NCBI RefSeq assembly: GCF_046105845.1
Contig: NZ_CP151004.1
Reading direction: 5' to 3' (one strand)
DNA length: 64,000 bases
Origin: Escherichia coli
GTDB lineage: Bacteria > Pseudomonadota > Gammaproteobacteria > Enterobacterales > Enterobacteriaceae
In this document: one piece after another, positions 1,413-64,000 of the stretch
Layout: the number at the start of each line of letters is the position of its first letter
Numbering within the stretch: position 1 is the first letter of the stretch
Translations under genes and position numbers: made by a program
Notes under the pieces: model-generated
Told to the model about the DNA's origin: nothing
What the model saw: only the letters and a program-made list of their open reading frames with translations
The model's database searches: none

Positions 1413-1533
1413 CTCTGCCTTCCTGTTTTTGTTGTGAAAGAATGACAAAGTAACGCAATTTATTATTCGCTAAAACCGCAAAAGCCAGTCCGCTGGACTG
1501 GCTTTGGATAAAATTTTCTTAATGGTCTGAAAT

Positions 1534-1695
1534 CTAGGGTCGTTTTCGGCCCATGAACAAACTCACCAGGAACAGAATAATCCCGACGACAAAGACAATT
1601 TTAGCTGCGCCTGCAGCGGTACCGGCCAGACCACCAAACCCAAGTGCGGCGGCGATTAACGCGATAACCAGAAATATGATGCCCCAACGAAACAT
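1534..1695 (-). CDS. ytjA: small membrane protein YtjA (DUF1328/UPF0391)
   Basis: ORF 1534-1725; internal start [22 protein letters not shown] gives the 53-aa two-helix protein. Confidence 0.85.
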
Positions 1696-1821
1696 AAGCG
1701 TCTCCTTTACCATAGTTAATGTCACCGCTTGATATGAGCGTGAAAATCACTCAATGCGATATTTTTAGTGTGGTGCACATCGCGCCTCCCGACAAAGTTC
1801 GGGAGGACGAATTACGACGAA

Positions 1822-2427: not shown

Positions 2428-2783
2428 CGATTTATTCCTGTATGTTTGCTCGTAATTTGAGCCTGGCAACACGAGGTTGCATTGCTGAATAGGGAGAGAC
2501 TTCACCCTCTACAGAAGTCAATGGTCGCCATCACAAAAGCGATGGGTGATGAATAACGACCATTACAGCCTCTGAATCAGTTATTAATATCGGTAGAATG
2601 ACAATCGACGGCTTTAGATACTGATATCTACGCATTGAACGATATTTAACGCCGTCAGAAATGTCATTACTTTGTTAAATATAGATCACAATTTTGAAAC
2701 CGCTCGGGATATCAGCTAAAACATAAGCAAAAGTGAATGTTTTAAGAACATTCCGTAAGCGGCTAATAAGGAAGGGAAATTGA

Positions 2784-2809
2784 CAGGGCGCAGCGGCTAC
2801 CGCGCCCTG
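2784..2809 (-). terminator. GC-rich hairpin immediately downstream of prfC
   Basis: Inverted repeat cagggcgc...gcgccctg with T/C-rich tract on the minus strand after the stem. Confidence 0.45.
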
Positions 2810-2819
2810 GAGGCAAGAA

Positions 2820-4406: not shown

Positions 4407-4566
4407 AATTGTTGTCTCTTTGATTATGTACAATCATATGTACAAAGAAAAATTCATGCCGCTGATTGTACATTTTGGAGGTATCAGAGCATAGCAGAAC
4501 ATGATCAGTAGGTGTATTTGTAGCCAAAGAACATTTGTACATGCAGCAATCTTTGTTCTATTGACA

Positions 4567-4582
4567 CTGTTTATTCATACAG
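4567..4582 (+). promoter_or_regulatory. LexA box (CTGT-N8-ACAG) upstream of dinI-like gene
   Basis: ctgtttattcatacag read directly. Confidence 0.6.
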
Positions 4583-4594
4583 TTAAAAATAACA

Positions 4595-4610
4595 CTGTAT
4601 ACAAACACAG
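4595..4610 (+). promoter_or_regulatory. second LexA box (CTGT-N8-ACAG), ends 16 nt before the dinI-like ATG
   Basis: ctgtatacaaacacag read directly. Confidence 0.6.
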
Positions 4611-4625
4611 TGTAGAGGGATTTTT

Positions 4626-4874
4626 ATGCGTATTGAGATCTGCATAGCCAAAGAGAAAATGACTAAAATGCCAAACGGTGCTGTGGATGCGTTAAAGGAA
4701 GAATTAACTCGACGCATCAGTAAGCGTTATGACGATGTAGAGGTGATCGTAAAAGCCACCAGCAACGATGGCCTTTCTGTTACGCGCACCGCCGATAAAG
4801 ATTCAGCTAAAACTTTTGTTCAGGAAACTCTGAAAGATACCTGGGAGTCTGCTGACGAGTGGTTTGTTCACTAA
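4626..4874 (+). CDS. DinI-family protein, likely a prophage-end moron
   Basis: MRIEICIAK...[11 protein letters not shown] resembles DinI (MRIEV...TWESADDWF); two LexA boxes upstream. Confidence 0.8.
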
Positions 4875-5482
4875 TTAACACGTAAAATCGGTAACGGCTG
4901 GAAATCATTCAATACTCGCACTATCGGAAGTTCACCAGCCAACCGCAGCACGTTCTTGCATACGACGTGTCTGCGGTTTTTCAACCATTCAGATACAGCA
5001 CTCTCATAACATTCATTCTTCCGCATTAAAGTATATATGACCATATCACCTTAATATTTTTCTTCTTCAGATAAAAATTGTTATCTATGTATACTTTTAA
5101 ACCGAATCCGTGTAGAGTCTCTACCTAAGTTAGTTCGCAGCTCCCCCTTCAGTTTGCGCCATTAACCTCCTGACTTTTGCCGCTATCTGTAAGCATTCCT
5201 GTATACCTGAAACTACAGGGTTCATCTACGAACTTTAAGAACACCCAGGATAAAAATTGTCAACTATATTATATATAACACCATACTAATTCGAGGCTAT
5301 ATGAACAGCATACTGATAATCACTTCACTACTTATCATATTCAGCATTTTTGGTCATGCTCTAATAAAATTAGGGATTGGCATATCCAATAACCCGGACA
5401 AAACAGATGTATAAGTCAACATATCCTGAATCAGACATACAATATTGCAATGAAAACCAATAATATTTTAAGGAATATCTTC

Positions 5483-5716
5483 ATGAAATCAAAAGACACC
5501 CTAAAGTGGTTCCCTGCGCAGCTTCCTGAAGTCAGAATTATCCTGGGAGATGCTGTCGTGGAAGTAGCAAAACAGGGAAGACCTATCAATACCAGAACAT
5601 TGCTTGATTACATTGAAGGAAACATAAAGAAAAAGTCATGGCTGGATAACAAAGAATTATTACAAACAGCGATATCAGTTCTTAAAGACAACCAAAATTT
5701 AAATGGTAAAGTGTAA
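5483..5716 (+). CDS. YdfK/YnaE-like cold-shock-induced prophage protein
   Basis: MKSKDTLKWFPAQLPEVRIILGDAVVEVAKQG matches remembered Qin/Rac YdfK/YnaE; sits beside the pin gene as in Rac/Qin; AT-rich leader. Confidence 0.55.
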   Translation: MKSKDTLKWFPAQLPEVRIILGDAVVEVAKQGRPINTRTLLDYIEGNIKKKSWLDNKELLQTAISVLKDNQNLNGKV

Positions 5717-6095
5717 TACCCCCCCTGAAAAATAATTTTTCAATGCATTAAAAAAATATCAACAACTACGTTATTCCGCAACAACCTACTTTTTTTACCA
5801 TTTTTCCACTTTAACAACATTTTGCTCCACTTTTCCACGACCAAACAACTTAAAATCTGGTTGAAATAACATACAACACTATTATTCGTCTTCCTCGAGT
5901 CCGCCCGGAGTTCGAAAAACAAACCGAGTTAAAGCCATTTTTCAAAAAATCGATTTTTGGTTACACCAAAATTACGGGACTGCATCCGAATTCGTTTATT
6001 TTCGAACGTATACATACAAATATGTACAATAATAAGCGAAATAATTTTTGGATATGCATTATGATATGTACACCAATTTCGTATAGAGTCTCACT

Positions 6096-6686
6096 ATGTC
6101 TCGAATTTTTGCTTACTGTCGGATATCAACGCTGGATCAGACCACCGAAAATCAACGCCGGGAAATCGAAAGTGCAGGTTTTAAAATCAAACCTCAGCAA
6201 ATAATCGAAGAACACATTAGCGGCTCAGCAGCAACCAGTGAGCGTCCTGGTTTTAACCGGTTGCTTGCTCGCCTGAAATGTGGTGATCAATTGATTGTGA
6301 CAAAACTGGATCGCCTTGGTTGTAATGCAATGGATATCAGGAAAACAGTGGAACAACTGACCGAAACAGGTATCAGAGTGCATTGCTTAGCATTGGGGGG
6401 CATTGACCTGACCAGTCCAACAGGAAAAATGATGATGCAAGTAATTTCAGCAGTCGCTGAATTTGAACGAGACCTTTTACTTGAACGCACTCATTCCGGG
6501 ATAGTAAGAGCCCGGGGCGCAGGGAAACGTTTTGGTCGACCACCTGTGTTAAATGAAGAACAGAAACAGGTGGTATTCGAACGGATTAAGTCAGGTGTAA
6601 GTATAAGTGCCATTGCCCGGGAATTCAAAACCTCGCGGCAAACCATTTTAAGAGCCAAAGCAAAACTTCAGACACCTGACATATAA
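6096..6686 (+). CDS. serine recombinase of the PinR/PinQ type
   Basis: 196 aa, [15 protein letters not shown] catalytic-serine N-terminus and C-terminal HTH; adjacent to tfa/stf as in Rac/Qin. Confidence 0.8.
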
Positions 6687-6783
6687 AAAATAATCTTGGT
6701 GTGAGATGCTTTACGTCTTCCAAGCCCCCTTCCTTGCCGTAAATGGAAAGATACATCTAATTATAGAATTTATATGTTTTACC

Positions 6784-7359
6784 CTACGGCAGTGCTGGCC
6801 ATTCAATATCCTGTGCAGTTGACGTATCAACACGGTTCAGCAATACCCGATACTTTTTCCATGCTTCCAGCAACGAGATTTCTTCCTCCGTTGCAATTTC
6901 CAGATCTGCAGCATCCTGAAGCGGCGCAATATGCTCACTGGCTACCTGCATCAGGCTGTTTTTTGTTTCTTCCGCCTCCCGGATCCGGAACAGTTTTTCT
7001 GCTTCTGCATCTTTCACCCAGGCTGTGCCGTTCCACTTCTGAAACTCCCCTTCCGGCGATAACCAGGTAACATTTTCCGGTAACGGACCGAGTTCAGAAA
7101 TAAATAACGCGTCCCCTGACGCTACGTCATAAACCGTTTTACCCCGATGGTCTTCAACGAGATGCCACGATGCCTCATCACTGTTGAAAACAGCCACGAA
7201 GCCTGCCGGAATATCTGGCGGTGCAATATCGGTACTGTTTGCTGGCAGACCTGTATGAGGCGGAATATATGCGTCACCTTCACCAATAAATTCATTAGTT
7301 CCGGCCAGCAGATTATAAATTTTTATGGTCCGTGGTTGTTCACTCATTCTGAATGCCAT
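6784..7359 (-). CDS. tail fibre assembly protein
   Basis: 191 aa; Tfa-like sequence ending DIEWPALP; directly downstream of stf. Confidence 0.85.
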
Positions 7360-10300: not shown

Positions 10301-10712
10301 CTGATGTGCTGGCATTGCTGGCTGACTTCTTCGCGGCTGCTGTGTTCTGTGCCACCGCGGACGCGTTACGCGCCACCTCTTCCACCATCAGTTCAAAACG
10401 TCGCAGTGCCTCCGGACGGGTATCATCCTCCGTCATGGCACCGAGAAAATCATTCAGCGTACCGGGTTGAGAATCTTCATACACGGTGATGGTCCCGGCA
10501 TGTGACGGCGGGAATCCCTCCACCAACAGAATAACGCTGTACTGACCGTACTCAACGTCCATACTGTAACGCCCGGCTTCATCCGGATTTTCTGAGGCCA
10601 GCGTGTTCACCACCACAGTGGTACTGTTACGTTTTGCTTTCAGCTGGATTGTGCAGTTCTGTACCGGTTTTCCTGTGCCGTCTTTCAGTACACCTGAAAT
10701 CTTTACTGCCAT
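7359..10712 (-). CDS. side tail fibre protein, StfR-like
   Basis: [28 protein letters not shown]-terminus, long Ala/Ser/Thr-rich central region, C-terminus HTHS repeats and [11 protein letters not shown]. Confidence 0.85.
9300..10370 (-). repeat. low-complexity Ala/Ser/Thr-rich coding repeats inside stf
   Basis: Reiterated [14 protein letters not shown] peptide units in the translation; produces artefactual long ORFs in the other frames. Confidence 0.7.
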
Positions 10713-10776
10713 ATTCACCCCACAAAAAAGCCCGCCTGAACCGGCGGGCTGTCATAACACTGTGTTACCTGGCTAA

Positions 10777-11376
10777 TCAGAATTTATAACCGACACCCAC
10801 GATGAAACCGTCAGTGCGCCAGTCACCACTGCCGGAGCCTTCATAAGCAATATCAATGGCCACGGATTCGGTCGGGTTAAACTGCACGCCAGCCCCCCAC
10901 GCCAGAGACGTGTTGCTGTGGCGACCGTCATCACTTCCGGTCAGCACATCGTGCGTTTTCCCCTTGTTGTCAGTTACGCGGAGATAATCCCCGGAGAAAG
11001 TCGACACACGGCTGTAAGCCACACCCGCCATCGCATACGCGCTGAACCATTCATTCACGCGTACAGACGGCCCCGCCATCACGCTGAACCAGCGGTTACG
11101 CACTGAATCTTCATGCCAGCGGGTATCGCTGTAACGGGTAAGCTGGCGATTCTTGTCTCCTGCATAGCTGAATGACGTCACCAGCCCCAGTGTGTCCGTA
11201 AACTCATAACGGTATTTCACGTTAATCCCGTTCAGATCATCGCTGCCGGAAACGTTCGTCGAGGCATGAAGATAGCCCGCGCTCAGCGTGGACTGATGTT
11301 CAGACGCCCATGCAGGCGCACCGGATACGGCCAGACAGATGGCTGCGGACAAAATGGTGGCATAAAGTTTACGCAT
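10777..11376 (-). CDS. lom: Lom/Ail/PagC-family outer-membrane beta-barrel protein
   Basis: Signal peptide [24 protein letters not shown], ends GYKF; lambda-like position between J and stf. Confidence 0.85.
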
Positions 11377-11442
11377 AATTACCTCTCGCTTTTCTGCAAT
11401 AAAAAAGGCGTCATTTCTGACGCCCGTTATGGGTTATAAAAT

Positions 11443-15203
<3,761 letters not shown>

Positions 15204-15232
<29 letters not shown>

Positions 15233-15533
15233 AACGCACACCTCCGGAAATACCTTCCCCAAGATGCATCAGTTCTTCGTCCGTTCGCTCCGGTATCCCG
15301 TTCTCTTCCGGTAAAAGGCTGAAATCAGCCACCGCAGCATCACTGCTACCGGACACCATTCTCACGATCAATGCCTTCAGCGAGGCAAACTGCGCATCCA
15401 TCCACACATCACTGAAGCTCTGCATCCGGAAATAATCGCCCCACTCACCAAGCTCAGTGGCCGACATTTCCGACAGCATCCGCCGCCAGTCTGCCCGTCG
15501 GAACTCCCGGGCAAGCCGCATGACAAACTGCAT
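15204..15533 (-). CDS. tail assembly chaperone T-like frame (expected as a G-T fusion)
   Basis: -1 frame ORF overlapping the end of the G-like gene, lambda G/T arrangement. Confidence 0.6.
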
Positions 15534-15541
15534 TTCCCGCG

Positions 15542-15931
15542 TCAGGACTTTTCCGGCGTCAGCGCCTCATGCTCATCATCCCCGGCATTATCAATGGTCC
15601 CCATACCGCTCAGCGACAGAACCATCTCCGCCCCCGCACCCAGGGCATCATACGACCATGTTGTAATAACGGATGCGCAAAGCGTCTCTACATCCTTAGA
15701 CTGATCCGCATTCCACAGTGAGCGGGAAACCAGCCAGGCATTGATATCCATCCCCATCCGCAGAAAAGCAATCTGTCGTTCAGCCTCCGGCAGTTCTCCC
15801 TCTTCGGCATCAAACTTTGCCGTTCGCTGCTGAACAAACGCCAGATATTCAATTCTCTGCAGCCCGGACAGCTCACTGAGCACCACGGACTGCTTTTCAT
15901 AATTAAACGTGCCCTGTTTCAGAAACATCAT
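15542..15931 (-). CDS. tail assembly chaperone, lambda G-like
   Basis: MMFLKQGTFNYEKQSVVLSELSGLQRIEYLAF resembles lambda G (MFLKTESFEHNGVTVTLSELSALQRIEHLA). Confidence 0.75.
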   Translation of the reverse strand: MMFLKQGTFNYEKQSVVLSELSGLQRIEYLAFVQQRTAKFDAEEGELPEAERQIAFLRMGMDINAWLVSRSLWNADQSKDVETLCASVITTWSYDALGAGAEMVLSLSGMGTIDNAGDDEHEALTPEKS

Positions 15932-15988
15932 GTTCTCCACCTGCAAAAAAGCCCCGGATAATCGGGGCAAATGATGAGTATCGTCCTG

Positions 15989-16732
15989 TTAACCTGCGGC
16001 GCTGACAGCCACCGTAGCCACTGCCACAAAATCGCCGTCAGAAGTCATGCCCACAATGCTGACACTGCCCTGCTTCACGCCTTTCACCGTGGCCACAAGC
16101 CCGTTCAGGGTCACCGTGGCAGTCTGTGGATCTGTCGAATGCACACTGATCGCTTTGTCACTGGCTCCGTCAGGTTTTACTGTAAAGGTCAGCGTGGTGG
16201 TTGCTCCCACTTTTACACTGGCAGATGCCGGTGCCACCGTCAGCCCGGTAACGCCCACGGTTTCAGTGCCTTCTTCTGCCAGATACGGACGCCCCACACC
16301 GCTGATTTTCACTGTGCGGGTCATCACGTCTTTTGAGGCAATGGTTTTACCCAGTGAACTCAGCCAGCCACGGAAAACATCAACAGTACCGTTGGGATAT
16401 TTGATACGAAACGCGCAGACTTCACCGGAGTCGAACAACTGAACCAGTTTTTTCTGCCCGCTGTCACCCGGACGCCAGGCCAGCGTCGCCGAAGTATCAC
16501 CGACGGATTTCTGCCCCTGGGTTGTCGTTTTCCAGTCTGCATCTTCATCATCGAGATAAGTGTCATCTTCTGCATCAGCGGTCATTTCGCCAGGTTGCAG
16601 ATCCTTCACCATCGCAAGACGCAGCCAGTCAGTGTCCGACAAAGGGTTCGCAAACGCATCGCCGTTGCCGGTATACATCCAGAACGTCGTCCCCGCACCT
16701 TTCGTCTTTGCCAGTGGATTTGGTGTGGTCAT
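15989..16732 (-). CDS. major tail protein, lambda V-like with C-terminal Ig-like domain
   Basis: Start MTTPNPLAKTKGAGTTFWMY; C-terminal Big_2-like segment; position between U and G. Confidence 0.8.
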   Translation of the reverse strand: MTTPNPLAKTKGAGTTFWMYTGNGDAFANPLSDTDWLRLAMVKDLQPGEMTADAEDDTYLDDEDADWKTTTQGQKSVGDTSATLAWRPGDSGQKKLVQLFDSGEVCAFRIKYPNGTVDVFRGWLSSLGKTIASKDVMTRTVKISGVGRPYLAEEGTETVGVTGLTVAPASASVKVGATTTLTFTVKPDGASDKAISVHSTDPQTATVTLNGLVATVKGVKQGSVSIVGMTSDGDFVAVATVAVSAAG

Positions 16733-16742
16733 TACCACCTCC

Positions 16743-17156
16743 TTAATTCGTGTACGTGATCTGGTACGTGATTTCCGCCATCGCCCAGGTGGCCATCTCA
16801 TTATCACGTTGATAGTTAAAACCGAGTGGGATCAGGGTGTCGATGAGTCCGGAAAGTGCCGGTACATCATTCAGGGCAGGGAAAATGGTGCTCTCCATCC
16901 ACATATCCAGCTCTGAATCCGGTGCCTGTGCCCGGATGAAGACGGCAATATGCAGAACAGCCTGCCAGTCATCTTCATCCGTCATTTTTCCGGTGTACTG
17001 AGCATCACTCAGCCACACCGCCACGGCAGGCAGTTCCTGCGCATCAATAAATGCCGGAAGCCCGTCAAAAAACGTGGCGCTGTCTCCACACTGTTCCCGA
17101 AGGCGTGCCAGTACGGCCTGGCGGATTTGTGTATGTCGGTTCATCGGGTCAGCCAT
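16743..17156 (-). CDS. tail terminator protein, lambda U-like
   Basis: ATFFDGLPAFIDAQELPAVAVWL and DSELDMWMESTIFPAL resemble lambda U. Confidence 0.8.
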   Translation of the reverse strand: MADPMNRHTQIRQAVLARLREQCGDSATFFDGLPAFIDAQELPAVAVWLSDAQYTGKMTDEDDWQAVLHIAVFIRAQAPDSELDMWMESTIFPALNDVPALSGLIDTLIPLGFNYQRDNEMATWAMAEITYQITYTN

Positions 17157-17719
17157 AACCTCAGTTGTTGTTTCAGTGCATACCCCAGCTGTTTCGGCAT
17201 TTCCGCAGCAATGATGTGGTCACGGGCATCTTCAAATGCCTGTGTCAGCGGTCCGGACAGCGGGATTTTCACCACATCAATGGGGTAACGATTTTTGCCA
17301 TCAATACGTCGCATCACATGCCAGCGACCATTCGCCAGTTGCTGAATAAACGCATCCCGGAAAAGATATTTACCCACCTTCAGCACACTGCCACGGTACT
17401 GCAGTTTTCCACCACGCCGGGCCAGTCTGACCCGGGCTGTCCCCAGCTTAATGGCGGGCAGATTGCCTCGGTTAACGCGGATCCTGGCCGTCATTTTTCC
17501 TGACGGACTGGCTTTAAACACCCGGACACGCTGACGTACCAGTTTCAGGGGGATCCCTTTCACCTGGTTATCTCCCGCAACGGTATTCCCGGCAACCTGC
17601 CGGGTGGCAACCGAGACCGCTTTCTGTGCCACACGGTTTATCGCCCATGCGCTGGCCTGTGGCACCATACGGGTATCAAGGCTGTTCAGATTGCGGATGG
17701 CATTCTCAAGCCCCTTCAT
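17141..17719 (-). CDS. tail completion protein, lambda Z-like
   Basis: 192 aa; NGRWHVMRRIDGKNRYPIDVVKIP and LGYALKQQLRL resemble lambda Z. Confidence 0.8.
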   Translation of the reverse strand: MKGLENAIRNLNSLDTRMVPQASAWAINRVAQKAVSVATRQVAGNTVAGDNQVKGIPLKLVRQRVRVFKASPSGKMTARIRVNRGNLPAIKLGTARVRLARRGGKLQYRGSVLKVGKYLFRDAFIQQLANGRWHVMRRIDGKNRYPIDVVKIPLSGPLTQAFEDARDHIIAAEMPKQLGYALKQQLRLWLTR

Positions 17720-17730
17720 CCCACACCTCT

Positions 17731-18006
17731 TTACTCAATAAAGATCATTGGCTTACCGTTAAAGCGTTCATGCCGTGTGACCGTCCATTGTTGTCCGTCA
17801 TAAACAACGCGATCCCCGCGCCGTGGGCGGTATCCCGAAGAAAACACCACCAGAGAGACCGCAGGTCCGGACAGAGCATTCAGCTCTGCCAGTGTTTCTC
17901 CCGGGATCACAGTCATATCGACATCATTAATCGAGGCTGTCTTTCCCATCTTTCTGACCGTGATCGCATCCATACGCGCTGCCAGCCGGGAAAAGGGATC
18001 AGACAT
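17731..18006 (-). CDS. head-tail joining protein (lambda FII position)
   Basis: 91 aa, gene order between head gene and Z. Confidence 0.5.
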   Translation of the reverse strand: MSDPFSRLAARMDAITVRKMGKTASINDVDMTVIPGETLAELNALSGPAVSLVVFSSGYRPRRGDRVVYDGQQWTVTRHERFNGKPMIFIE

Positions 18007-18322
18007 TGAGTTTTACCGGCACTTCTTCTGCACTGGTTCCGGCATCTGCCCAGACAACCCCGACCAGCGGATCAGAGCCACTGTTAGTCAGCTGAACTTT
18101 TCCTGACTTCATATAAACCTTCTTACCCGTTTTCATGTCATCCGTTTTCAGCTTAGGCAGCATAAACACACCTTCGGTTATGCCGTCGCCTGTTTCTCCC
18201 TGTGGAATATCGGTCAGCGCCACCGCAAAAACATCACCCACCTGCACCAGATCTCCGCTGCTGATGGCTGCACTGGCAACAATCGCCACCGTTTTTCCTT
18301 CTTCTACAAAATTCTTTGCCAT
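17999..18322 (-). CDS. small head protein of unknown function (lambda FI position)
   Basis: ORF 17999-18367; internal ATG at 18322 preceded by GGAG. Confidence 0.4.
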   Translation of the reverse strand: MAKNFVEEGKTVAIVASAAISSGDLVQVGDVFAVALTDIPQGETGDGITEGVFMLPKLKTDDMKTGKKVYMKSGKVQLTNSGSDPLVGVVWADAGTSAEEVPVKLNV

Positions 18323-18408
18323 AACTGTCTCCGCACAGCCCCGTTCAGGGGCTGATTTCAGGTACAAAAAAAGCCCTTACGGGCCATCAGAGTTGTTGTC
18401 TGCGACGT

Positions 18409-20367
18409 TTACGCCGTACATTTCACCAGGCCGCGGTGATCAACTGGCGCAACACCAGCGTCAATACGTACTTTCGTTGTCACGCCATCCACACTGAAGC
18501 CCTCCATCTGATCAATATATGGCGTATCCACACCGTTGAGATAAGCCACTTCAATCGTATCGGAGCCTTTGGACGCAGCCAGGTAGAAGGTGGTCTGGCT
18601 GTTATCATCAAGACGAGGCTCTGCAATAACGGTCGCAAAATCTTTCACCGGGTTAATAATACCGGCGTTAATGTCAGCCCCCTTGACACTTGAGGAGCGA
18701 ATGACCTGGTTAGCAACAGACTCCATCGCCGTCGGTACCAGTACGAACGCAGGACGAATATTCAGATGACGCTCACCCTCTTTCTGAACGCGCATCAACT
18801 GGCGGGCTTTATCCAGCGATGCCACGTCCATTGCCGCGCTCTCCAGTACGTTTGCATGTTTCGCTTTATCGAACAGACTTACATTATCTGTGGAGATTTT
18901 CGGGTTAGACGTCAGAATGGCATAAACCAGATCGGCAATAGTGGATTTCGCCGCACGGCCCAGCTTCATCGGGACATCGGTCAGCATATTCAGATCATCA
19001 TTGATAATGGCCTGACGGGTGATACTGAACAGCTCGCCATAGGTCGCCAGTGCAATAGTGGCCTGTTTATCTCCGGTGGTGACGTATTTATATTCTGCCC
19101 CTTCACGCACCTGACGCAGAGCACTGAAGCCCCCCATACCCACACGATGGGCAATTTTAAAATCAGACAACTGACCTTTCCGCGTCCACTGTTCATAGGT
19201 TTCAGGGGCATCTTCCCAGCCCTGCAGAATGGCTTTGTTCGCAACATCCAGCAGAATATTACCGAAGTCAGACGTACTGTGTGTGAACGCCGCACCGACC
19301 ATCTGCATCGGGTTATAACTGGAAACACCAATACCACGTTCAGTCAGTGACATACGGGCATATTCACGCAGGGTCATCCCGTTGTAGACATTATCACGTT
19401 CGGTTTTTTCAAACCCGGCGCGCGCCATCAGCGCCTGGCGGATCCCGTCCCCCACAAAATTACCGTTACCGGCATAAATATGAGCCGGGGTATTTTTATT
19501 GGATGGCGTGGACTCGCGCCCCATCTCGTTCAACAGCTTTTCGCGGGCCTGCTCCAGCGAACATTCAGGATCGGCAAGACACTGAGCCTGCAGCGACTGA
19601 TAACGCCCACCAAACATGGCAAACAGATCATTAATACCGTTTACACGCGCTTTTTGCTCTGCCAGGACCTGCGCACGGATGCTGTTTTCATCCACCACGG
19701 GTGCTGCTGCCTGCACTGGCGTCCGGGAGGCTGCAGGTCCATCATCCTGTACGCGTGGAGCACTGTTGCGTGGCGGAGTAATCATATTTCGAATGGATTC
19801 CGGCATCTTTTTAAATTCCTCTGTACGTTTTGACTGAATACATGCCATTGCCTTAATGGCTGGTGTCACCTGATCAGCAAATCCCTGTGCCAGACATTCG
19901 GCACCGGACATCCAGGTCTCATCCGCCAGCATGGCAGCAATTTCATCGGTGGTTTTCCCGGTTTTCTGTGCATAAGCGGGTAACAGAACCGCCTCAACTT
20001 TATCGAGCAGGTCGGCATAGGTGCGCATGTCCTCCGCATCACCGCCCGTAAAGCCAAATGGTTTATGAATCATCATGAAGGAGTTTTCCGGCATAATGAC
20101 CGGGTTTCCCACCATCGCAATGACCGACGCCATTGACGCCGCCACACCGTCGACATAAACGGTAATGGACGCACCATGTGTTTTCAGTGCATTAAAAATG
20201 GCGATGCCTTCAAAGACATCGCCACCCGGTGAATTAATATGGAGATTAATGTGGGTGATATCGCCCAGTGCATTCAGATCACTGATAAACTGCTTCGCCG
20301 TAACACCCCAGAAACCAATCTCGTCATAAATATAAATATCCGCGTCACTCTGGTGACCTGCCTGCAT
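18409..20367 (-). CDS. prohead protease (ClpP-like) fused to major capsid protein
   Basis: ORF 18409-20628; N-terminal ClpP-like domain (INSPGG, GVAASMAS) then capsid domain; start assumed at ATG 20367 just after the portal stop. Confidence 0.7.
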   Translation of the reverse strand: MQAGHQSDADIYIYDEIGFWGVTAKQFISDLNALGDITHINLHINSPGGDVFEGIAIFNALKTHGASITVYVDGVAASMASVIAMVGNPVIMPENSFMMIHKPFGFTGGDAEDMRTYADLLDKVEAVLLPAYAQKTGKTTDEIAAMLADETWMSGAECLAQGFADQVTPAIKAMACIQSKRTEEFKKMPESIRNMITPPRNSAPRVQDDGPAASRTPVQAAAPVVDENSIRAQVLAEQKARVNGINDLFAMFGGRYQSLQAQCLADPECSLEQAREKLLNEMGRESTPSNKNTPAHIYAGNGNFVGDGIRQALMARAGFEKTERDNVYNGMTLREYARMSLTERGIGVSSYNPMQMVGAAFTHSTSDFGNILLDVANKAILQGWEDAPETYEQWTRKGQLSDFKIAHRVGMGGFSALRQVREGAEYKYVTTGDKQATIALATYGELFSITRQAIINDDLNMLTDVPMKLGRAAKSTIADLVYAILTSNPKISTDNVSLFDKAKHANVLESAAMDVASLDKARQLMRVQKEGERHLNIRPAFVLVPTAMESVANQVIRSSSVKGADINAGIINPVKDFATVIAEPRLDDNSQTTFYLAASKGSDTIEVAYLNGVDTPYIDQMEGFSVDGVTTKVRIDAGVAPVDHRGLVKCTA

Positions 20368-20380
20368 CCTGAACCAGGAA

Positions 20381-21889
20381 TTATTCTTCGGACTGGTCGT
20401 CGGTGTGCTGCGGCTCCTGTCGTTTCGTTGCGGCACTGCTGCCTCCTTTATCACTGGCCGGATCGGTATCAAATACCAGATCCAGCTTGCGGTTTTCATC
20501 AATTTCGGCCTTGCGCCGACGTTTGACATCATCCGGATTACGACCACCTGCACGTACCCAGTCTGATTCTGTCGCCGCTCCACCACGAATCTGAATTTTC
20601 CAGGCCTCAGCCTCCTTAACAGGGTCAATCCACGGCATCACCGGTCCGGAATACACCGCGGTATACAGTGAAGAACGATCAAGATCGCGGGGTAGCCTGA
20701 TAACACCGGATGCCACAGCCTGTTTCAGCCAGGCACGATACATCGGGCGGGTGACGGCACCAATAAACCAGTCCTGCAGGATCAGGTAGCCATCAGTGGA
20801 TTCAACCAGCTCCTGACGCTGGGCGCTGTAAGTGCCGTTATAGTTGCGCGCTGTACTGGAAAAACTCAGACGACTGCCCGCCGCCACGGCACGCAACTGA
20901 CCATTACGAAAAGTTTCAAGATTAGGATTGGGGCGATCCGACTTCACCATTCCGATTTCTTCGCCGGGTTTCAGATCGTCGTAAATAATGCCTGGCTGAA
21001 TGGTAAGCTCGCGTTCCTTATCCTTGCTGCCATTACCATCCGGTTCATAGCTCTGCCCGTCGCCTTTCCGGATGTACATCCCCAGAGCAGCGGCGATCCT
21101 TGCTGCAGTCAGCTCAGAATCTTCATACTCTTTCAGGGCACTGAGGCGGATCAGCACACCGGACAACAAAGACGTCCCGCGCATCTGGTGCAGACGGCGA
21201 ACAAATTTAAGATGCAGCATTCGCTCTGCATCCACTTCTTTGGTTTCCATCTGCCGTCCGGATACGGGACGGCTTTTATACACCAGATATTTTTCGGGAC
21301 GCCCCCAGTCATCAACAAACACGCCCTGATTCAGCCTGTTGCTCTCATCACTGGTCATGGGAATAAAGTCCGGCTCGAGCGCCTCCAGCCAGAAATGAAC
21401 ACCGGCAGAAGGCGTCAGGCTGTTTATGCGCCCGGAAACCATCTGGGCAAACACCTCACCATCGCGCAGCCAGGTACGCAACATCAGACGTTCCAGCATC
21501 GGACGGGTAAACTGCCCGGTGACTTCCGGACTGACAGACCATTCACTCCATCGGGTGCGTATCTCCGCTGCCAGATCACGGGCAATGGCCCCATTGCGTA
21601 ATACCGGATGTGGCTCGACAATAATCCCGTTTTTCCCCACCACCCGTTCTTCCAGCTTGTCAAATACACCAATGACCAGATCGTGGTTGTTATCAAGGTA
21701 ACGGGCCTGCTCACGTAACGACACGGCCCCGTACTGGCTTAACTGGTCGGCAGTTCGGTTTTCCCGCCGGGCTTTGTGTGTCCGCGTCGTTTTTACGGCC
21801 TCATAAGCCTGGATCACCGCACGGGAACGCAGCCTTGCCGCTTTCCATCCTGGTGAAAAAACGCCAATCACATCATCAAGAATTGCCAT
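20381..21889 (-). CDS. portal protein (lambda B family)
   Basis: ORF 20381-21961, ~500 aa, between W-like gene and protease-capsid gene; start MAILDDVIG overlaps the W stop. Confidence 0.8.
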   Translation of the reverse strand: MAILDDVIGVFSPGWKAARLRSRAVIQAYEAVKTTRTHKARRENRTADQLSQYGAVSLREQARYLDNNHDLVIGVFDKLEERVVGKNGIIVEPHPVLRNGAIARDLAAEIRTRWSEWSVSPEVTGQFTRPMLERLMLRTWLRDGEVFAQMVSGRINSLTPSAGVHFWLEALEPDFIPMTSDESNRLNQGVFVDDWGRPEKYLVYKSRPVSGRQMETKEVDAERMLHLKFVRRLHQMRGTSLLSGVLIRLSALKEYEDSELTAARIAAALGMYIRKGDGQSYEPDGNGSKDKERELTIQPGIIYDDLKPGEEIGMVKSDRPNPNLETFRNGQLRAVAAGSRLSFSSTARNYNGTYSAQRQELVESTDGYLILQDWFIGAVTRPMYRAWLKQAVASGVIRLPRDLDRSSLYTAVYSGPVMPWIDPVKEAEAWKIQIRGGAATESDWVRAGGRNPDDVKRRRKAEIDENRKLDLVFDTDPASDKGGSSAATKRQEPQHTDDQSEE

Positions 21890-22107
21890 CAGAACCTCGC
21901 AAGCCGGTACCCGGGATGCCCCCGTCGTCGTGTAATCAGAGCCGCAAGGCGGCGCTCCCACTCCTGCCGTCCCTGCCGGATCTCAGATAAGTTTTCCATG
22001 GTCATCTGCTGACCATTAAAGGTGACGGATTTTCCGTCCAGCACCGCCATTTCAGCTTCCGTATAACGCTGAATCATGGCTTCGATATCATTCTGGTTCA
22101 TAACCAT
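21889..22107 (-). CDS. head-tail joining protein, lambda W-like
   Basis: 72 aa ending RRRGHPGYRLARF, cf. lambda W C-terminus RRRGPAGFYV. Confidence 0.75.
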   Translation of the reverse strand: MVMNQNDIEAMIQRYTEAEMAVLDGKSVTFNGQQMTMENLSEIRQGRQEWERRLAALITRRRGHPGYRLARF

Positions 22108-24200
22108 CCTCCGGAAGTCAGCCAGGGGTTAACATCGTCAGTTACTGTTTTCTTCCGTTTTTGTTTTTTAACAGGCGTGGATACCGGTTCCGGTGTGGGT
22201 GACGGTTCGGTACTGTCCGGGACACACTCCAGCCAGGTTTCCCGGCTCGCCCACTCCGGTGCATCCGGCCAGCGGATCTTTTCGTATCCATGCAGAATGA
22301 CCAGAGCCTCGGCATACACCATCAGGTCAAAAGCTTCGTTGGCACCGCGACCCGGCTTACTCCATTTCCCGTCACTGCTCCGCTCTTCATACGTCAGTTC
22401 GTCGTAAAACCAGCTCCCCAGCCAGTCAGGGAAATGCACATAGCCGGGACCTGGCGAGTCACGCCATAACGCGTTATTCACCCGGTCTTTCAGGGCATCC
22501 GTCTGAAGAAGCCAGAGCGGTACATCACCTGCGGCCTGCGCCCGTCGGCCCGTTCGTCCGGTGTTATCAGGGAATGTACGGGTGATCAGTTTTGCGCGCC
22601 GGATGCTGTCGCCCTTAAACAGGTAAATACGTTTACCAAGGCCATCACGACGGCAACGACGCCAGAATTTATAGGCATTATCAGTGACTCCGTCTTCACC
22701 GCCGGAGTCCACCGCCATTGCCATCAGTCGCATTTGTTGAGAAGGATCGGAGGCCAGCGGCCAGCTTTTATGAAAAACATCCGTCAGCAGGACATCCCAG
22801 TCTTCCGGATAGCTGGCCGGATCAATTCGCTGGCTCTCCCCGTCGCTGTCACCGCGCAATGACTGCGTGATGTTGTAACGATCAATAATCCAGCGTTCGC
22901 CACGGCTGCCATAGCCCGTTACCTGAACCACAAAACGGCGATGACGTCCCGCCTGCACATCAACTGTCGCCACCAGGAAATTAACGCCATCCGGCACACT
23001 GCGGGAAGGAACTGGCTCTGCCCGCTGCTCAAGCAGTTCACTTTTTCGTTGCTCCATGCTGGCACGGGGAAGATAAGGTAATCCCCAGTCGGTATTGATA
23101 ACCGTCTTGAGTGTTTCTTCACTTCCGGTTGTCTCGTATTCCTGTTCTGCAGCAAGCAGTTTGTAAACGAGTTGCGAGAGTGTCTGGTAAGCAGCTGCCG
23201 GACCCTCCATCCAGAATGACGCAATACGTGAGCGTCGGGGATCACCATAACGACTGCCATCCGCATTGATGGATTCACCATCCCGCAACCAGACCCCACG
23301 TCCGTTCAGCTCACGTTTTTGTTCAGGCATAATCCGTCCTGAACAGGAAGGACACTGAATATAAGCCGCCTCACTTGCCAGCACGGGATCGGCAATATCA
23401 CGGAAACCAGCAACCACATCGCCGCAGGGCTGAAAATACTCACCACAGTGTGGACAGGGCCAGTACCAGCGACGGCGATCGCCACGGTTATAGAGCGACA
23501 GTATCCCCGTGGTTGGTGGAGCCTCATGCGGTGAAGTCCGTCGCCATTTCACATCCTTCACATCCCTGCCGGGGGAACTCTCCACCAGCGTCATACCACT
23601 GGACATAAATGTGGTGGTACGTTTTGAGGCAAGAGAGAAGGCATCCCCCTCGCCATCAATATCTTCCGGAAAACGGTCATAATCCGTCAGCGCCACGCAT
23701 TTATAATCTGATGAGGACATGATATTGACTGACGGCCAGCCGATTTTCAGGTAGTTGCCAGCAAGGAATGTTCTGTCATAAACGTTGTTGTCATTTTTGT
23801 TCGGACTCAGGCGACTGACCACTTCCGGGCTGACGCGAAACGTTCTGGCAAGTCGTTTTTTGGAGTGTTCGCGGGCTTTTTCCTCCGTCATCTGAATGAT
23901 CAGCATATCAGCAGGATCGCAAATCACGTTGTAAATCACCCAGCCGTCAATCAGGCCGATAGTCTTGCCAGTTCGTGCCGGGCCAACAAATATCACTGCG
24001 TCGTATTCACGCGAGGCCAGGCAGTTCATCGGCTCAATAACATACGGTGCCACCAGCGGATCCCACGGGACTGAGTTCCCGGCCCCCATGGGCACCCGCA
24101 TATACTGAGCAACGGCATCAGCAACCCGCATTCGTCTCGGTGCGCGAAGGATATAACCTGAATCGGTTCGTGCTGCCTTTGCGGTTTCCTGATTCAGCAT
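22098..24200 (-). CDS. terminase large subunit (lambda A family)
   Basis: 700 aa; Walker A-like VGPARTGKT near the N-terminus; gene order after the small subunit. Confidence 0.85.
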   Translation of the reverse strand: MLNQETAKAARTDSGYILRAPRRMRVADAVAQYMRVPMGAGNSVPWDPLVAPYVIEPMNCLASREYDAVIFVGPARTGKTIGLIDGWVIYNVICDPADMLIIQMTEEKAREHSKKRLARTFRVSPEVVSRLSPNKNDNNVYDRTFLAGNYLKIGWPSVNIMSSSDYKCVALTDYDRFPEDIDGEGDAFSLASKRTTTFMSSGMTLVESSPGRDVKDVKWRRTSPHEAPPTTGILSLYNRGDRRRWYWPCPHCGEYFQPCGDVVAGFRDIADPVLASEAAYIQCPSCSGRIMPEQKRELNGRGVWLRDGESINADGSRYGDPRRSRIASFWMEGPAAAYQTLSQLVYKLLAAEQEYETTGSEETLKTVINTDWGLPYLPRASMEQRKSELLEQRAEPVPSRSVPDGVNFLVATVDVQAGRHRRFVVQVTGYGSRGERWIIDRYNITQSLRGDSDGESQRIDPASYPEDWDVLLTDVFHKSWPLASDPSQQMRLMAMAVDSGGEDGVTDNAYKFWRRCRRDGLGKRIYLFKGDSIRRAKLITRTFPDNTGRTGRRAQAAGDVPLWLLQTDALKDRVNNALWRDSPGPGYVHFPDWLGSWFYDELTYEERSSDGKWSKPGRGANEAFDLMVYAEALVILHGYEKIRWPDAPEWASRETWLECVPDSTEPSPTPEPVSTPVKKQKRKKTVTDDVNPWLTSGGWL

Positions 24201-45037: not shown

Positions 45038-46804
45038 ATGAACACCACACTAACACCCGCAGATCTCGATCCCCGTCGGCAGGCCATGCTGCTGTACTTT
45101 CAGGGATACCGCGTAGCCCGCATTGCTGAAATGCTGGGCGAGAAAGTTGCAACCGTTCACAGCTGGAAAAAACGCGACAAGTGGAGTGACTATGGGCCGC
45201 TGGATCAGATGCAGCTCACCACCGCCGCACGCTACTGCCAGCTCATTATGAAGGAGCACAAAGAAGGGAAAGATTTCAAAGAGATTGACCTGCTGGCGCG
45301 CCAGTCGGAGCGCCATGCGCGGATCGGCAAGTTTAACAATGGCGGCAACGAAGCCGACTTAAACCCTAACGTTGCCAACCGCAACAAAGGCCCGCGCCGT
45401 CAGCCGGAAAAGAACGTTTTCACCGATGAACAGATTGAGAAGCTGGAAGAAATCTTCCATTCCTCCATGTTCAACTACCAGCGCCACTGGTGGGAAGCCG
45501 GAAAAACCAACCGCATCCGCAACCTGCTGAAGTCACGCCAGATCGGCGCGACCTTCTATTTTGCCCGTGAAGCCCTGATTGACGCCCTGCTAACCGGGCG
45601 TAACCAGATTTTCCTTTCCGCCAGCAAGGCACAGGCCCACGTCTTTAAGCAGTACATCATCGACTTCGCCAAAGAAGTGGAGGTGGAGCTGAAAGGCGAT
45701 CCGATGGTGCTTCCTAACGGGGCCACGCTGTACTTCCTCGGCACCAATGCCCGCACGGCCCAGAGTTACCACGGCAACCTGTATCTGGATGAATATTTCT
45801 GGATACCGAAATTCCAGGAGCTGCGCAAAGTGGCTTCCGGTATGGCTATTCACAAGAAATGGCGACAGACCTATTTTTCCACGCCATCCAGTCTGACACA
45901 CAGTGCTTATCCGTTCTGGTCCGGTGCGCTGTTCAACCGTGGGCGCAACAGAGCCGATAAGGTGGACATCGACCTGTCCCACAGCAATCTGGCCCCCGGC
46001 CTGCTGTGCGCAGACGGGCAATACCGCCAGATAGTCACCGTGGAAGATGCGGTGCGCGGCGGCTGTAACCTGTTCGACCTTGACCAGTTGCGCATGGAGT
46101 ACAGCCCTGACGAATACCAGAACTTGCTGATGTGCGAGTTCGTGGACGATCTCGCGTCCGTGTTCCCGCTCAGCGAATTGCAGGCGTGCATGGTGGACAG
46201 CTGGGAAGTCTGGACCGACTTTCATGCACTGGCCCTGCGCCCGTTTGGCTGGCGCGAAGTGTGGATCGGTTATGACCCGGCAAAAGGTACGCAGAACGGC
46301 GACAGCGCCGGATGCGTGGTGGTGGCACCGCCAGCCGTGCCAGGCGGTAAGTTCCGCATTCTTGAGCGTCACCAGTGGCGCGGAATGGACTTTCGCGCCC
46401 AGGCTGACGCCATCAAAAAACTGACCGAACAGTACAACGTGACCTATATCGGCATCGACTCAACCGGCGTTGGTCACGGGGTTTACGAGAACGTGAAAGC
46501 GTTTTTTCCTGCCGTCCGGGAGTTTGTCTACAACCCCAACGTTAAAAACGCCCTGGTACTCAAGGCCTACGACATTATCAGCCACCGCCGTCTTGAGTTT
46601 GACGCCGGGCACACCGACATTGCGCAGTCATTCATGGCAATCCGTCGCGCCACCACCGCCAGCGGCAACCGCCCGACCTATGAAGCCAGCCGCAGCGAAG
46701 AAGCCAGCCATGCCGATCTGGCCTGGGCAACAATGCACGCACTGTTTAACGAACCACTGCAGGGCGAGTCCGCCAATACCAGCAATATTGTGGAGATTTT
46801 TTGA
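45038..46804 (+). CDS. P: terminase large (ATPase) subunit (P2 gpP-like)
   Basis: 588 aa, divergent from O. Confidence 0.9.
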   Translation: MNTTLTPADLDPRRQAMLLYFQGYRVARIAEMLGEKVATVHSWKKRDKWSDYGPLDQMQLTTAARYCQLIMKEHKEGKDFKEIDLLARQSERHARIGKFNNGGNEADLNPNVANRNKGPRRQPEKNVFTDEQIEKLEEIFHSSMFNYQRHWWEAGKTNRIRNLLKSRQIGATFYFAREALIDALLTGRNQIFLSASKAQAHVFKQYIIDFAKEVEVELKGDPMVLPNGATLYFLGTNARTAQSYHGNLYLDEYFWIPKFQELRKVASGMAIHKKWRQTYFSTPSSLTHSAYPFWSGALFNRGRNRADKVDIDLSHSNLAPGLLCADGQYRQIVTVEDAVRGGCNLFDLDQLRMEYSPDEYQNLLMCEFVDDLASVFPLSELQACMVDSWEVWTDFHALALRPFGWREVWIGYDPAKGTQNGDSAGCVVVAPPAVPGGKFRILERHQWRGMDFRAQADAIKKLTEQYNVTYIGIDSTGVGHGVYENVKAFFPAVREFVYNPNVKNALVLKAYDIISHRRLEFDAGHTDIAQSFMAIRRATTASGNRPTYEASRSEEASHADLAWATMHALFNEPLQGESANTSNIVEIF

Positions 46805-63767: not shown

Positions 63768-63771
63768 TGGA

Positions 63772-63987
63772 TTACTCTCTTCTCGCAACCTTACGCCTGT
63801 CTTCTTTAATCTTGAAATAAAGGTTTGTCAGATACGTCAGCAGGCCAAAAACCAGACTACCCAGCACACCGATTGCAGCCCACTGTGACGGAGTTACTTT
63901 ATCGAGTAACTGCAATGCCCAGAAACCAGCATTACCAGCCGATGTGCCATAGGCGATACCTGTTGTTAACTTATCCATTGATTTCAT
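63772..63987 (-). CDS. holin (EssD/EssQ-like)
   Basis: [26 protein letters not shown]...[14 protein letters not shown] matches remembered EssD. Confidence 0.85.
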
Positions 63988-64000
63988 ATCCTCACCCCGA

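What the first reader, a model, noticed from the sequence alone, without database searches (positions are those of the whole stretch)
15533..15560. G-T tail chaperone overlap with a non-canonical slip sequence
The T-like frame overlaps the end of the G-like gene in the -1 frame as in lambda, but the overlap reads ccg gaa aag tcc tga rather than G GGA AAG. Either frameshifting uses an unusual heptamer (GGAAAAG) or the G-T fusion is not made here.
Basis: seen in the sequence. Interest (0 to 1): 0.3.

Follow-up and report, generated by a model that had tools for sequence, protein, structure and literature searches.

The report
Known N15-type G-T frameshift site
This is the tail-chaperone gene pair G/T of a common E. 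coli lambda-like prophage; its off-consensus slip sequence GGAAAAG is the usual one in this branch of the family and is already annotated as the frameshift site in phage N15, so the finding is real but ordinary.

Summary
On the minus strand, a lambda-G homologue (15931..15542) is overlapped in the -1 frame by a lambda-T homologue (open from 15566, stop at 15204). The overlap reads CCG GAA AAG TCC TGA, so the heptamer G GAA AAG lies at 15554..15548.

The "unusual heptamer" reading is supported, not the "no fusion" reading:
- The -1 frame is open for only 25 nt before the G stop, and that stretch contains the heptamer.
- The T frame has no usable ribosome-binding site. Its only ATG aligns with Leu in relatives, and an invariant Glu lies upstream of it.
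- Selection on the T frame is as strong as on G (dN/dS 0.16-0.32).
- GGAAAAG sits exactly 12 codons upstream of the conserved AREF motif in 42 of 55 distinct junctions (14 of 21 clusters below 85% identity). Lambda's GGGAAAG and the Stx phages' AAAAAAG occupy the same position.
- The N15 GenBank record already labels this heptamer "slippery sequence for -1 translational frameshift".

No conserved downstream RNA structure was found. A GAGG 10 nt upstream may act as a stimulator.

This copy lies in a defective prophage: an IS3-family element replaces the 3' end of the tape-measure gene and most of the tail-tip genes. No frameshift product has been demonstrated for this heptamer in anything I could access.

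The parts
15989..16732 (-). Major tail tube gene (lambda V-like, with a C-terminal Ig-like domain)
   Evidence: Pfam Phage_TTP_12 (E = 1.2e-66) and Big_2 (E = 1.6e-11). Strong SD sequence AAGGAGG upstream of the ATG at 16732.
15945..15968 (-). Terminator-like hairpin plus T-run between V and G
   Evidence: GCCCCGATTATCCGGGGC followed by TTTTTT. The same position is annotated as a terminator in Ayreon and mEp460 and as a putative rho-independent terminator in N15.
15542..15931 (-). G-like tail assembly chaperone gene, 129 aa. ATG at 15931 (a second ATG at 15928 aligns with the MFLK start of relatives); stop TGA at 15544..15542
   Evidence: Pfam Phage_TAC_2 (E = 6e-40). 35% identity to lambda G-T by tblastn. 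SD-like GGAG upstream, dG -6.4.
15565..15568 (-). SD-like GAGG, 10 nt upstream of the heptamer (a possible stimulator, inferred only)
   Evidence: Anti-SD duplex of -5.6 to -5.8 kcal/mol. 6 of 21 clusters reach -5.5 kcal/mol at this position, against 7.5% of background windows in G genes. All six lie in the short-overlap subclade.
15548..15554 (-). Slip heptamer G GAA AAG (0 frame Glu-Lys; -1 frame GGA AAA)
   Evidence: It lies exactly 12 codons upstream of the AREF motif in 42 of 55 distinct relatives. It is the most conserved nucleotide block at the junction. The identical heptamer is annotated as the slippery sequence in N15.
15204..15566 (-). T-like reading frame (-1 relative to G), open from 15566, stop at 15206..15204. 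The predicted G-T fusion is 242 aa (128 aa from G plus 114 aa from T)
   Evidence: Pfam Phage_tail_T (E = 5.1e-15). dN/dS 0.16-0.32. The predicted fusion aligns end to end with lambda, phi80, HK225 and Gifsy-2 fusions.
15531..15533 (-). First ATG in the T frame. Annotators use it as the T start, but it is probably not a real start
   Evidence: The best anti-SD duplex at usable spacing is only -1.1 kcal/mol, against -6.4 for G and -10.8 for the tape-measure gene. It aligns with Leu in most relatives, and the invariant Glu133 lies upstream of it.
12944..15232 (-). Tape-measure gene (lambda H-like), truncated at its 3' end
   Evidence: Pfam TMP_2 (E = 7e-49) and TMP_4. Homology to phage cdtI stops at cdtI position 11980, which is window position 12949.
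11691..12948 (+). IS3-family insertion sequence (1258 bp) at the deletion junction. It carries its own A AAA AAG -1 frameshift site at 12023..12029
   Evidence: Two overlapping transposase ORFs. Inverted ends TGTAGTGG read directly from the sequence. RefSeq labels matches in other genomes as IS3 family transposase.

Best explanation
This is the G/GT tail-assembly-chaperone recoding site of a lambda-like (cdtI/mEp460-type) prophage.

Most ribosomes translate G (129 aa) and stop at TGA 15544..15542. A small fraction slip back one base on G GAA AAG (15554..15548). I favour a tandem slip: the A-site tRNA-Lys re-pairs perfectly from AAG to AAA, and the P-site tRNA-Glu re-pairs from GAA to GGA, with G:C at codon position 1, a G-U pair at position 2 and A:U at position 3. 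Translation then continues in the T frame and gives a 242-aa G-T fusion with the junction ...ALTPEK|VLTREMQF....

By analogy with lambda, the G part would bind the tape-measure protein and the T part would recruit the tail tube protein.

- **Shown here:** the gene identities, the frame geometry, the lack of an independent T start, purifying selection on T, and nucleotide-level conservation of the heptamer at a fixed position.
- **Inferred:** that slippage happens at this heptamer, that it is tandem, and that GAGG 10 nt upstream helps.

In this particular prophage the product would be of no use, because the tail module is deleted downstream.
For: 1. **Homology and gene order.** The order is V, G, T, H, with Pfam Phage_TAC_2 (6e-40) and Phage_tail_T (5e-15). 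The region is 99.4% identical to phage cdtI and 98-99% identical to mEp460, Tritos and Ayreon.
2. **Narrow window.** The -1 frame is open for only 25 nt before the G stop, and that stretch includes the heptamer. In relative L055 the whole window is 21 nt: GAT TTG CCG GAA AAG TCC TGA.
3. **Fixed position.** GGAAAAG lies exactly 12 codons before the AREF motif in 42 of 55 distinct junctions and 14 of 21 clusters below 85% identity. Lambda's GGGAAAG and the Stx phages' AAAAAAG occupy the same slot.
4. **Conserved synonymous positions.** The codon before the heptamer is CCG, GCG or CTG (Pro, Ala or Leu) but always ends in G. Glu is always GAA, and Lys is always the rarer AAG. Elsewhere between these lineages the proportion of synonymous differences is 0.47-0.70. 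Codon usage figures come from PMC3296357, Table 2.
5. **No independent start for T.** 8 of 21 clusters have no ATG, GTG or TTG in the T frame before AREF. The window's ATG at 15533 has no usable SD sequence and aligns with Leu, and the invariant Glu133 lies upstream of it.
6. **T is translated.** dN/dS is 0.16-0.32, the same range as G.
7. **Prior annotation.** The N15 record marks GGAAAAG as "slippery sequence for -1 translational frameshift". HK225 annotates "tail assembly protein GT", and Gifsy-2 annotates "part of G+G' frameshift hybrid protein".
8. **Precedent for the motif.** A_AAG is the most shift-prone tetramer in E. coli (PMC4066793). The same GAA-to-GGA re-pairing through G:U has been proposed for other phage chaperone sites (PMC10885494).
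Against: - I could not find any experimental demonstration of a G-T fusion from a GGAAAAG site.
- In a reconstituted E. coli translation system, G GAA AAG was chosen as the unfavourable, "less slippery" sequence and gave mainly the 0-frame product (PMC6924986).
- The A_AAG tetramer alone gives only about 0.15% frameshifting in vivo without a stimulator (PMC4066793).
- I found no conserved downstream structure. The single-sequence fold has z = -0.77, and the alignment fold gives -1.5 kcal/mol with no compensatory pairs.
- The upstream GAGG is not conserved across the whole family.
- My sample of relatives is biased towards the query, because only the best 80 of at least 581 hits were kept, and the clusters are not phylogenetically independent.
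Confidence: 0.85

Rival explanations
1. Frameshifting occurs at this site, but by slippage of a single tRNA-Lys on A_AAG. The P-site tRNA-Glu would not need to re-pair, so the effective signal is a tetramer rather than the heptamer.
For: A_AAG is the best tetramer in E. coli, and C_AAG also shifted measurably with a strong stimulator, which points to tRNA-Lys as the main driver (PMC4066793). Some relatives carry G GCA AAA TAG, where the P-site tRNA-Ala could not re-pair well. PMC6924986 treats GAA-to-GGA as a second-position mismatch.
Against: The base before GAA is G in every GGAAAAG cluster, although the amino acid there varies between Pro, Ala and Leu. The P-site codon is always GAA and never GAG. 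A pure tetramer mechanism does not predict this. Tetramers need a strong stimulator to reach percent levels, and I found no conserved structure.
Confidence: 0.2
2. T is made on its own by initiation at ATG 15533 (or 15521), as database annotations imply, and no fusion is needed.
For: An ATG exists, and GenBank and RefSeq annotate T as a separate CDS starting there. Some relatives (L034, L051) have a GGGAG that could serve a GTG or ATG nine codons after the slip site.
Against: - There is no SD sequence at usable spacing: -1.1 kcal/mol for ATG 15533, and -4.3 kcal/mol at a 12-nt spacing for ATG 15521.
- The ATG aligns with Leu in most relatives.
- 8 of 21 clusters, including Gifsy-2 and the phi80 type, have no start codon at all in this stretch.
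- Conserved T-frame residues, including the invariant Glu133, lie upstream of the ATG.
Confidence: 0.07
3. Nothing functional happens here. The prophage is decaying, and the G/T junction is a relic whose signal no longer matters.
For: The tape-measure gene is truncated, and cdtI positions 11981-18626 (the tape-measure 3' end, M, L, K, I and most of J) are missing and replaced by an IS3-family element.
Against: This concerns only the usefulness of the product in this copy, not the nature of the signal. G, T and the junction are intact and 99.4% identical to the same region of the sequenced phage cdtI and 98-99% identical to mEp460 and Tritos. If the late operon is transcribed, the ribosome would behave the same way.
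Confidence: 0.05
4. The frame change is made by RNA polymerase slipping on the A run (transcriptional slippage), not by the ribosome.
For: The site contains a run of A residues.
Against: The run is only four A's. From general knowledge, transcriptional slippage in bacteria needs runs of roughly seven or more; I did not test this here. The conserved flanking G GA and the final G are features expected of tRNA re-pairing, not of a homopolymer.
Confidence: 0.02

Closest known systems
Phage N15 genes 14/15 (and their HK225, mEp237 and phi80 homologues)
   Same: These are homologous G and T proteins with the identical heptamer GGAAAAG at the identical distance from the T core. The N15 record annotates that heptamer as the -1 slippery sequence.
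   Different: In the N15 type, the G frame runs five more codons after the heptamer before its stop. Here and in Gifsy-2 it runs only one (TCC TGA). The N15 type has no SD-like GAGG upstream. Protein identity to the window is only about 37-40%.
Phage lambda G / G-T programmed -1 frameshift (G GGA AAG)
   Same: The Pfam families, the V-G-T-H gene order, the -1 overlap near the end of G and the slip position (12 codons before AREF) are all the same. In lambda about 4% of ribosomes shift, and the G:GT ratio matters for assembly (PMC3296357; PMC5009743).
   Different: The third base of the heptamer is A here, not G. The P-site codon is therefore Glu GAA instead of Gly GGA, and re-pairing needs a G-U pair at the middle position. 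The sequence fails the strict X XXY YYZ rule.
E. coli dnaX (A AAA AAG with an upstream SD-like element and a downstream hairpin)
   Same: The A-site codon is AAG, read by the single E. coli tRNA-Lys (PMC6924986). In this window an SD-like GAGG lies 10 nt upstream of the heptamer, which from my recollection is similar to the dnaX spacing.
   Different: There is no conserved downstream hairpin, the P-site codon is not slippery in the classical sense, and the SD-like element is confined to one subclade.
IS3-family transposase orfA/orfB frameshift
   Same: This is also a -1 shift centred on AAG/tRNA-Lys. IS3 itself uses the A_AAG tetramer (PMC4066793). An IS3-family element with A AAA AAG lies 3.5 kb away in this window.
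   Different: IS3 depends on a strong downstream pseudoknot, and nothing comparable is seen here.

Membership tests
Lambda-type G/G-T tail assembly chaperone pair | The upstream gene is a lambda gpG homologue | tested here: met
   Pfam PF06894 Phage_TAC_2, E = 6e-40, covering residues 2-122 of 129.
Lambda-type G/G-T tail assembly chaperone pair | The downstream frame is a lambda gpT homologue | tested here: met
   Pfam PF06223 Phage_tail_T, E = 5.1e-15, with full profile coverage. The predicted fusion aligns with the lambda G-T fusion.
Lambda-type G/G-T tail assembly chaperone pair | Located between the major tail tube gene and the tape-measure gene | tested here: met
   Phage_TTP_12 lies upstream and TMP_2 downstream, all on the minus strand.
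Lambda-type G/G-T tail assembly chaperone pair | T is in the -1 frame, overlaps the 3' end of G and lacks its own conserved start | tested here: met
   Frame geometry. No usable SD sequence. 8 of 21 relatives have no start codon before the conserved core, and the ATG aligns with Leu.
Lambda-type G/G-T tail assembly chaperone pair | Canonical X XXY YYZ slippery heptamer in the overlap | tested here: not met
   The only candidate in the 25-nt window is G GAA AAG, in which the XXX positions read G-G-A. It matches the heptamer annotated in N15 and the 'twofour' pattern listed for phage chaperone frameshifts in PMC10885494.
Lambda-type G/G-T tail assembly chaperone pair | A G-T fusion protein is made at a low fixed ratio to G and is required for tail assembly | not testable with these tools
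   This needs protein detection or genetics. Indirect support only: the T frame is under purifying selection, with dN/dS 0.16-0.32.
dnaX-like stimulated -1 frameshift sites | A conserved downstream stem-loop or pseudoknot 5-9 nt after the heptamer | tested here: not met
   Single-sequence fold z = -0.77. The 17-sequence alignment fold gives -1.5 kcal/mol, with 0 compensatory pairs.
dnaX-like stimulated -1 frameshift sites | An SD-like element about 10 nt upstream of the heptamer | tested here: inconclusive
   GAGG is present 10 nt upstream here. 6 of 21 clusters reach -5.5 kcal/mol, against a 7.5% background, but it is absent from the N15, phi80 and lambda types. The lineages are not independent.

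The most novel reading that the evidence does not exclude
GGAAAAG may not be a degenerate lambda site but a separately tuned one.

- Both slipping tRNAs (Glu and Lys) carry the mnm5s2U34 modification, so the G:GT ratio would be doubly sensitive to the host's tRNA thiolation state.
- The intrinsically weak heptamer would be brought to a working level in the cdtI/Gifsy-2 subclade by an SD-like GAGG 10 nt upstream and by the stop codon one codon downstream.

If so, the sequence that kinetic studies use as a "poorly slippery" control would be a natural programmed site in a large share of E. coli prophages.
Probability: 0.25. Interest if true: 0.4.

Novelty: already known. Interest (0 to 1): 0.18.

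Why it matters
The scientific weight is small, and the main value is practical.

- **Annotation.** GenBank and RefSeq records for this module list G and T as two separate genes, with T starting at a doubtful ATG. At least 80% of a 3.3-kb stretch spanning G, T and the tape-measure remnant is found in 1821 of 5426 complete E. coli genomes. The likely real product is a 242-aa G-T fusion.
- **Search tools.** Frameshift finders that accept only X XXY YYZ (for example the motif set searched in PMC4066793) will miss this whole branch of the family.
- **Mechanism.** A heptamer treated as unfavourable for slippage in vitro (PMC6924986) is the commonest one in my sample of this natural recoding family. 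Measuring its in vivo efficiency and its dependence on context would be a cheap, well-defined experiment.

Tried and rejected
- **Downstream stimulatory structure.** I folded 113 nt after the heptamer (z = -0.77) and 17 diverged homologues in register (consensus -1.5 kcal/mol, no covariation). I rejected a conserved structure.
- **Independent T start.** I scored SD pairing for both T-frame ATGs and compared it with the G, V and tape-measure starts. My first attempt used wrong start coordinates for V and G, which I corrected. I also surveyed start codons in 21 clusters. I rejected an independent start as the general route.
- **Literature.** I searched for GGAAAAG or "G GAA AAG" with frameshift or phage terms. 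The only relevant hit was the in vitro kinetics paper PMC6924986. The key papers (Xu, Hendrix and Duda 2004; Baranov et al. 2006) are not held, so I could not check whether N15-type sites were tested experimentally.
- **Upstream SD-like element.** It is enriched but confined to one subclade. I kept it as a hypothesis only.
- **Transcriptional slippage.** I rejected it because the A run is too short.
- **Failed scripts.** The dN/dS script stopped on a sixth relative whose G start was not recognised; five comparisons were completed.

Full report
**1. What is there**

All the genes concerned are on the minus strand. Reading 5' to 3' on that strand:
- A lambda-V-like tail tube gene lies at 16732..15989 (Pfam Phage_TTP_12 1.2e-66, plus Big_2).
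- A terminator-like hairpin lies at 15968..15951, followed by a T-run.
- A G-like gene lies at 15931..15542 (Phage_TAC_2, 6e-40).
- A T-like reading frame is open from 15566 to its stop at 15206..15204 (Phage_tail_T, 5.1e-15).
- A tape-measure gene starts at ATG 15232 (TMP_2, 7e-49).

The junction reads GAG GCG CTG ACG CCG GAA AAG TCC TGA in the G frame, and tga GGC GCT GAC GCC GGA AAA GTC CTG ACG CGG GAA ATG in the T frame. T is therefore in the -1 frame. The heptamer G GAA AAG is 15554..15548, and the G stop follows one codon later.

**2. Origin of the region**

The 851-nt region is 99.4% identical to phage cdtI and 98-99% identical to mEp460, Tritos, Ayreon and others. At least 80% of a 3.3-kb stretch spanning G, T and the tape-measure remnant (window 16000..12700) is found in 1821 of 5426 complete E. 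coli genomes, where RefSeq names the genes "phage tail assembly chaperone G" and "phage tail assembly protein T". Mapping the whole cdtI genome onto the window gives three results:
- cdtI 829-11980 corresponds to window 24101..12949.
- cdtI 18627-19724 corresponds to window 11457..10363.
- cdtI 11981-18626 (the tape-measure 3' end, M, L, K, I and most of J) is absent.

A 1258-bp IS3-family element sits at the junction, at 11691..12948. This prophage cannot build a tail, but its G/T junction is intact.

**3. Is the heptamer more than chance?**

By itself it is not. GGAAAAG occurs 17 times in the window, against 9.7 +/- 3.0 expected. The signal lies in its position and its conservation.

The -1 frame is open for only 25 nt before the G stop, so any shift must occur within eight codons. 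I collected 12 diverged phage homologues by tblastn and 80 viral contigs. In every one, a run of A's sits at the same place: 12 codons upstream of the conserved AREF motif of the T domain, or 13 in a Vibrio phage.

Among 55 distinct junction sequences, the heptamer is:

| Heptamer | Count | Example or note |
|---|---|---|
| GGAAAAG | 42 | this window, N15 type, Gifsy-2 |
| GGCAAAA | 5 | followed directly by TAG |
| GGGAAAG | 4 | lambda type |
| AAAAAAG | 2 | Stx phages |
| GGAAAAA | 1 | followed directly by TAG |
| CCCAAAA | 1 | Vibrio phage HY01 |

After clustering at 85% identity, 14 of 21 clusters carry GGAAAAG, and the heptamer is the best-conserved nucleotide block at the junction, while the sequence just upstream is highly variable. 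The codon before the heptamer encodes Pro, Ala or Leu but always ends in G. Glu is always GAA, and Lys is always AAG, which is the minor Lys codon in E. coli (24%; PMC3296357, Table 2). Elsewhere, the proportion of synonymous differences between the window and five relatives is 0.47-0.70.

Two caveats apply. The 80 contigs are the best-scoring of at least 581 hits, so they lean towards the query. The clusters are also not independent lineages.

**4. Is the T frame translated, and from where?**

- **Selection.** dN/dS for the T frame is 0.16-0.32, the same range as G at 0.13-0.33, so T is translated in the lineage.
- **Candidate start.** The window's first T-frame ATG (15533) has an anti-SD duplex of only -1.1 kcal/mol at usable spacing. 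The values are -6.4 for G, -10.8 for the tape-measure gene and -13.4 for V.
- **Alignment.** That Met aligns with Leu in most relatives. The invariant Glu133 of the predicted fusion lies upstream of it.
- **Relatives.** 8 of 21 clusters, including Gifsy-2, a phi80-type phage and a Providencia phage, have no ATG, GTG or TTG anywhere between the opening of the T frame and AREF.

Entry from the G frame is therefore the only route common to the family, and the narrow window pins it to the heptamer.

**5. How it probably works**

After a -1 slip, the A-site tRNA-Lys moves from AAG to AAA, a perfect match. In E. coli a single tRNA-Lys reads both codons (PMC6924986). The P-site tRNA-Glu moves from GAA to GGA, which leaves G:C at position 1, G-U at position 2 and A:U at position 3. 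The invariant G before GAA argues that this P-site re-pairing is under selection, so I favour tandem slippage over a pure A_AAG tetramer mechanism. The same GAA-to-GGA re-pairing through G:U has been proposed for other phage chaperone sites (PMC10885494).

The evidence on efficiency points to a weak site:
- A_AAG alone gives about 0.15% in vivo, and 5.6% with a strong pseudoknot (PMC4066793).
- The best V_VV.A_AA.G heptamers give about 0.3% without a stimulator, rising to at most about 3.7% with a favourable 3' context (PMC4066793).
- G GAA AAG was used in vitro as the unfavourable sequence and gave mainly 0-frame product (PMC6924986).
- Lambda itself needs only about 4% (PMC3296357).

I found no conserved downstream structure. 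A GAGG lies 10 nt upstream of the heptamer here, and similar SD-like elements occur at the same distance in Gifsy-2 and several other short-overlap relatives. 6 of 21 clusters reach -5.5 kcal/mol, against 7.5% of background windows. This resembles the dnaX arrangement but is absent from the N15, phi80 and lambda types, so it remains a hypothesis.

**6. Comparison with what is known**

The GenBank record of phage N15 carries a misc_feature at 10027-10033 labelled "slippery sequence for -1 translational frameshift", and the bases there are GGAAAAG. HK225 annotates its homologue as "tail assembly protein GT", and Gifsy-2 as "part of G+G' frameshift hybrid protein". The exact heptamer at the exact homologous position is thus already recognised by annotators.

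The site meets every testable defining feature of the lambda G/G-T pair except the strict X XXY YYZ rule. I could not access the primary survey (Xu et al. 2004), and I found no experimental measurement for this heptamer in a phage context.

**7. Verdict**

The feature is a known variant of a known system in a very common prophage module, and in this copy it sits in a tail-deleted prophage. Interest is low. The residual value is in correcting annotation (G-T should be one joined product) and in a simple open question about how a weak heptamer reaches a useful frameshift level.

Noticed in passing
window 11691..12948 (+), with the slip site at 12023..12029: A 1258-bp IS3-family insertion sequence with inverted ends TGTAGTGG. 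Its two overlapping transposase frames are joined by a canonical A AAA AAG -1 frameshift site (TTA AAA AAG). This is a second recoding site, 3.5 kb from the G/T one.
   Followed up: partly
window 10363..12949 compared with cdtI (L095) 11980..18627: The prophage has lost about 6.6 kb: the tape-measure 3' end and the tail-tip genes M, L, K, I and most of J. The IS element sits at the junction. About 230 nt (11458..11690) to the left of the IS do not match cdtI at megablast level and may be the end of a diverged J gene.
   Followed up: partly
window 15945..15968 (-): A GC-rich hairpin plus T-run lies between the tail tube gene and G, and is annotated as a terminator in mEp460, Ayreon and N15. It may lower expression of G, T and the tape-measure gene relative to the tube protein.
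   Followed up: partly
loci L065, L066, L067, L070, L072 (G GCA AAA TAG) and L068 (G GAA AAA TAG): A subgroup of relatives has the A run ending directly at a TAG stop. Its P-site codon (GCA) cannot re-pair well in the -1 frame. This looks like a 'shifty stop' variant of the same site.
   Followed up: no
window 18409..20628 (-): A 739-aa ORF corresponds to the cdtI gene annotated as head maturation protease (cdtI 4563..6521). It appears to be a fused protease-capsid gene. The listed ORF begins well upstream of the start annotated in cdtI.
   Followed up: no
window 63771..63996: This stretch is 87% identical to the cdtI holin region (cdtI 45185..45410). It lies about 40 kb from where it would sit if it belonged to the same prophage, which suggests a second lambdoid prophage or a remnant at the far end of the window.
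   Followed up: no
locus L080 (two contigs): The -1 frame stays open for 255 nt before the G stop, far longer than the 21-57 nt in most other relatives, yet the heptamer and its position are unchanged.
   Followed up: no
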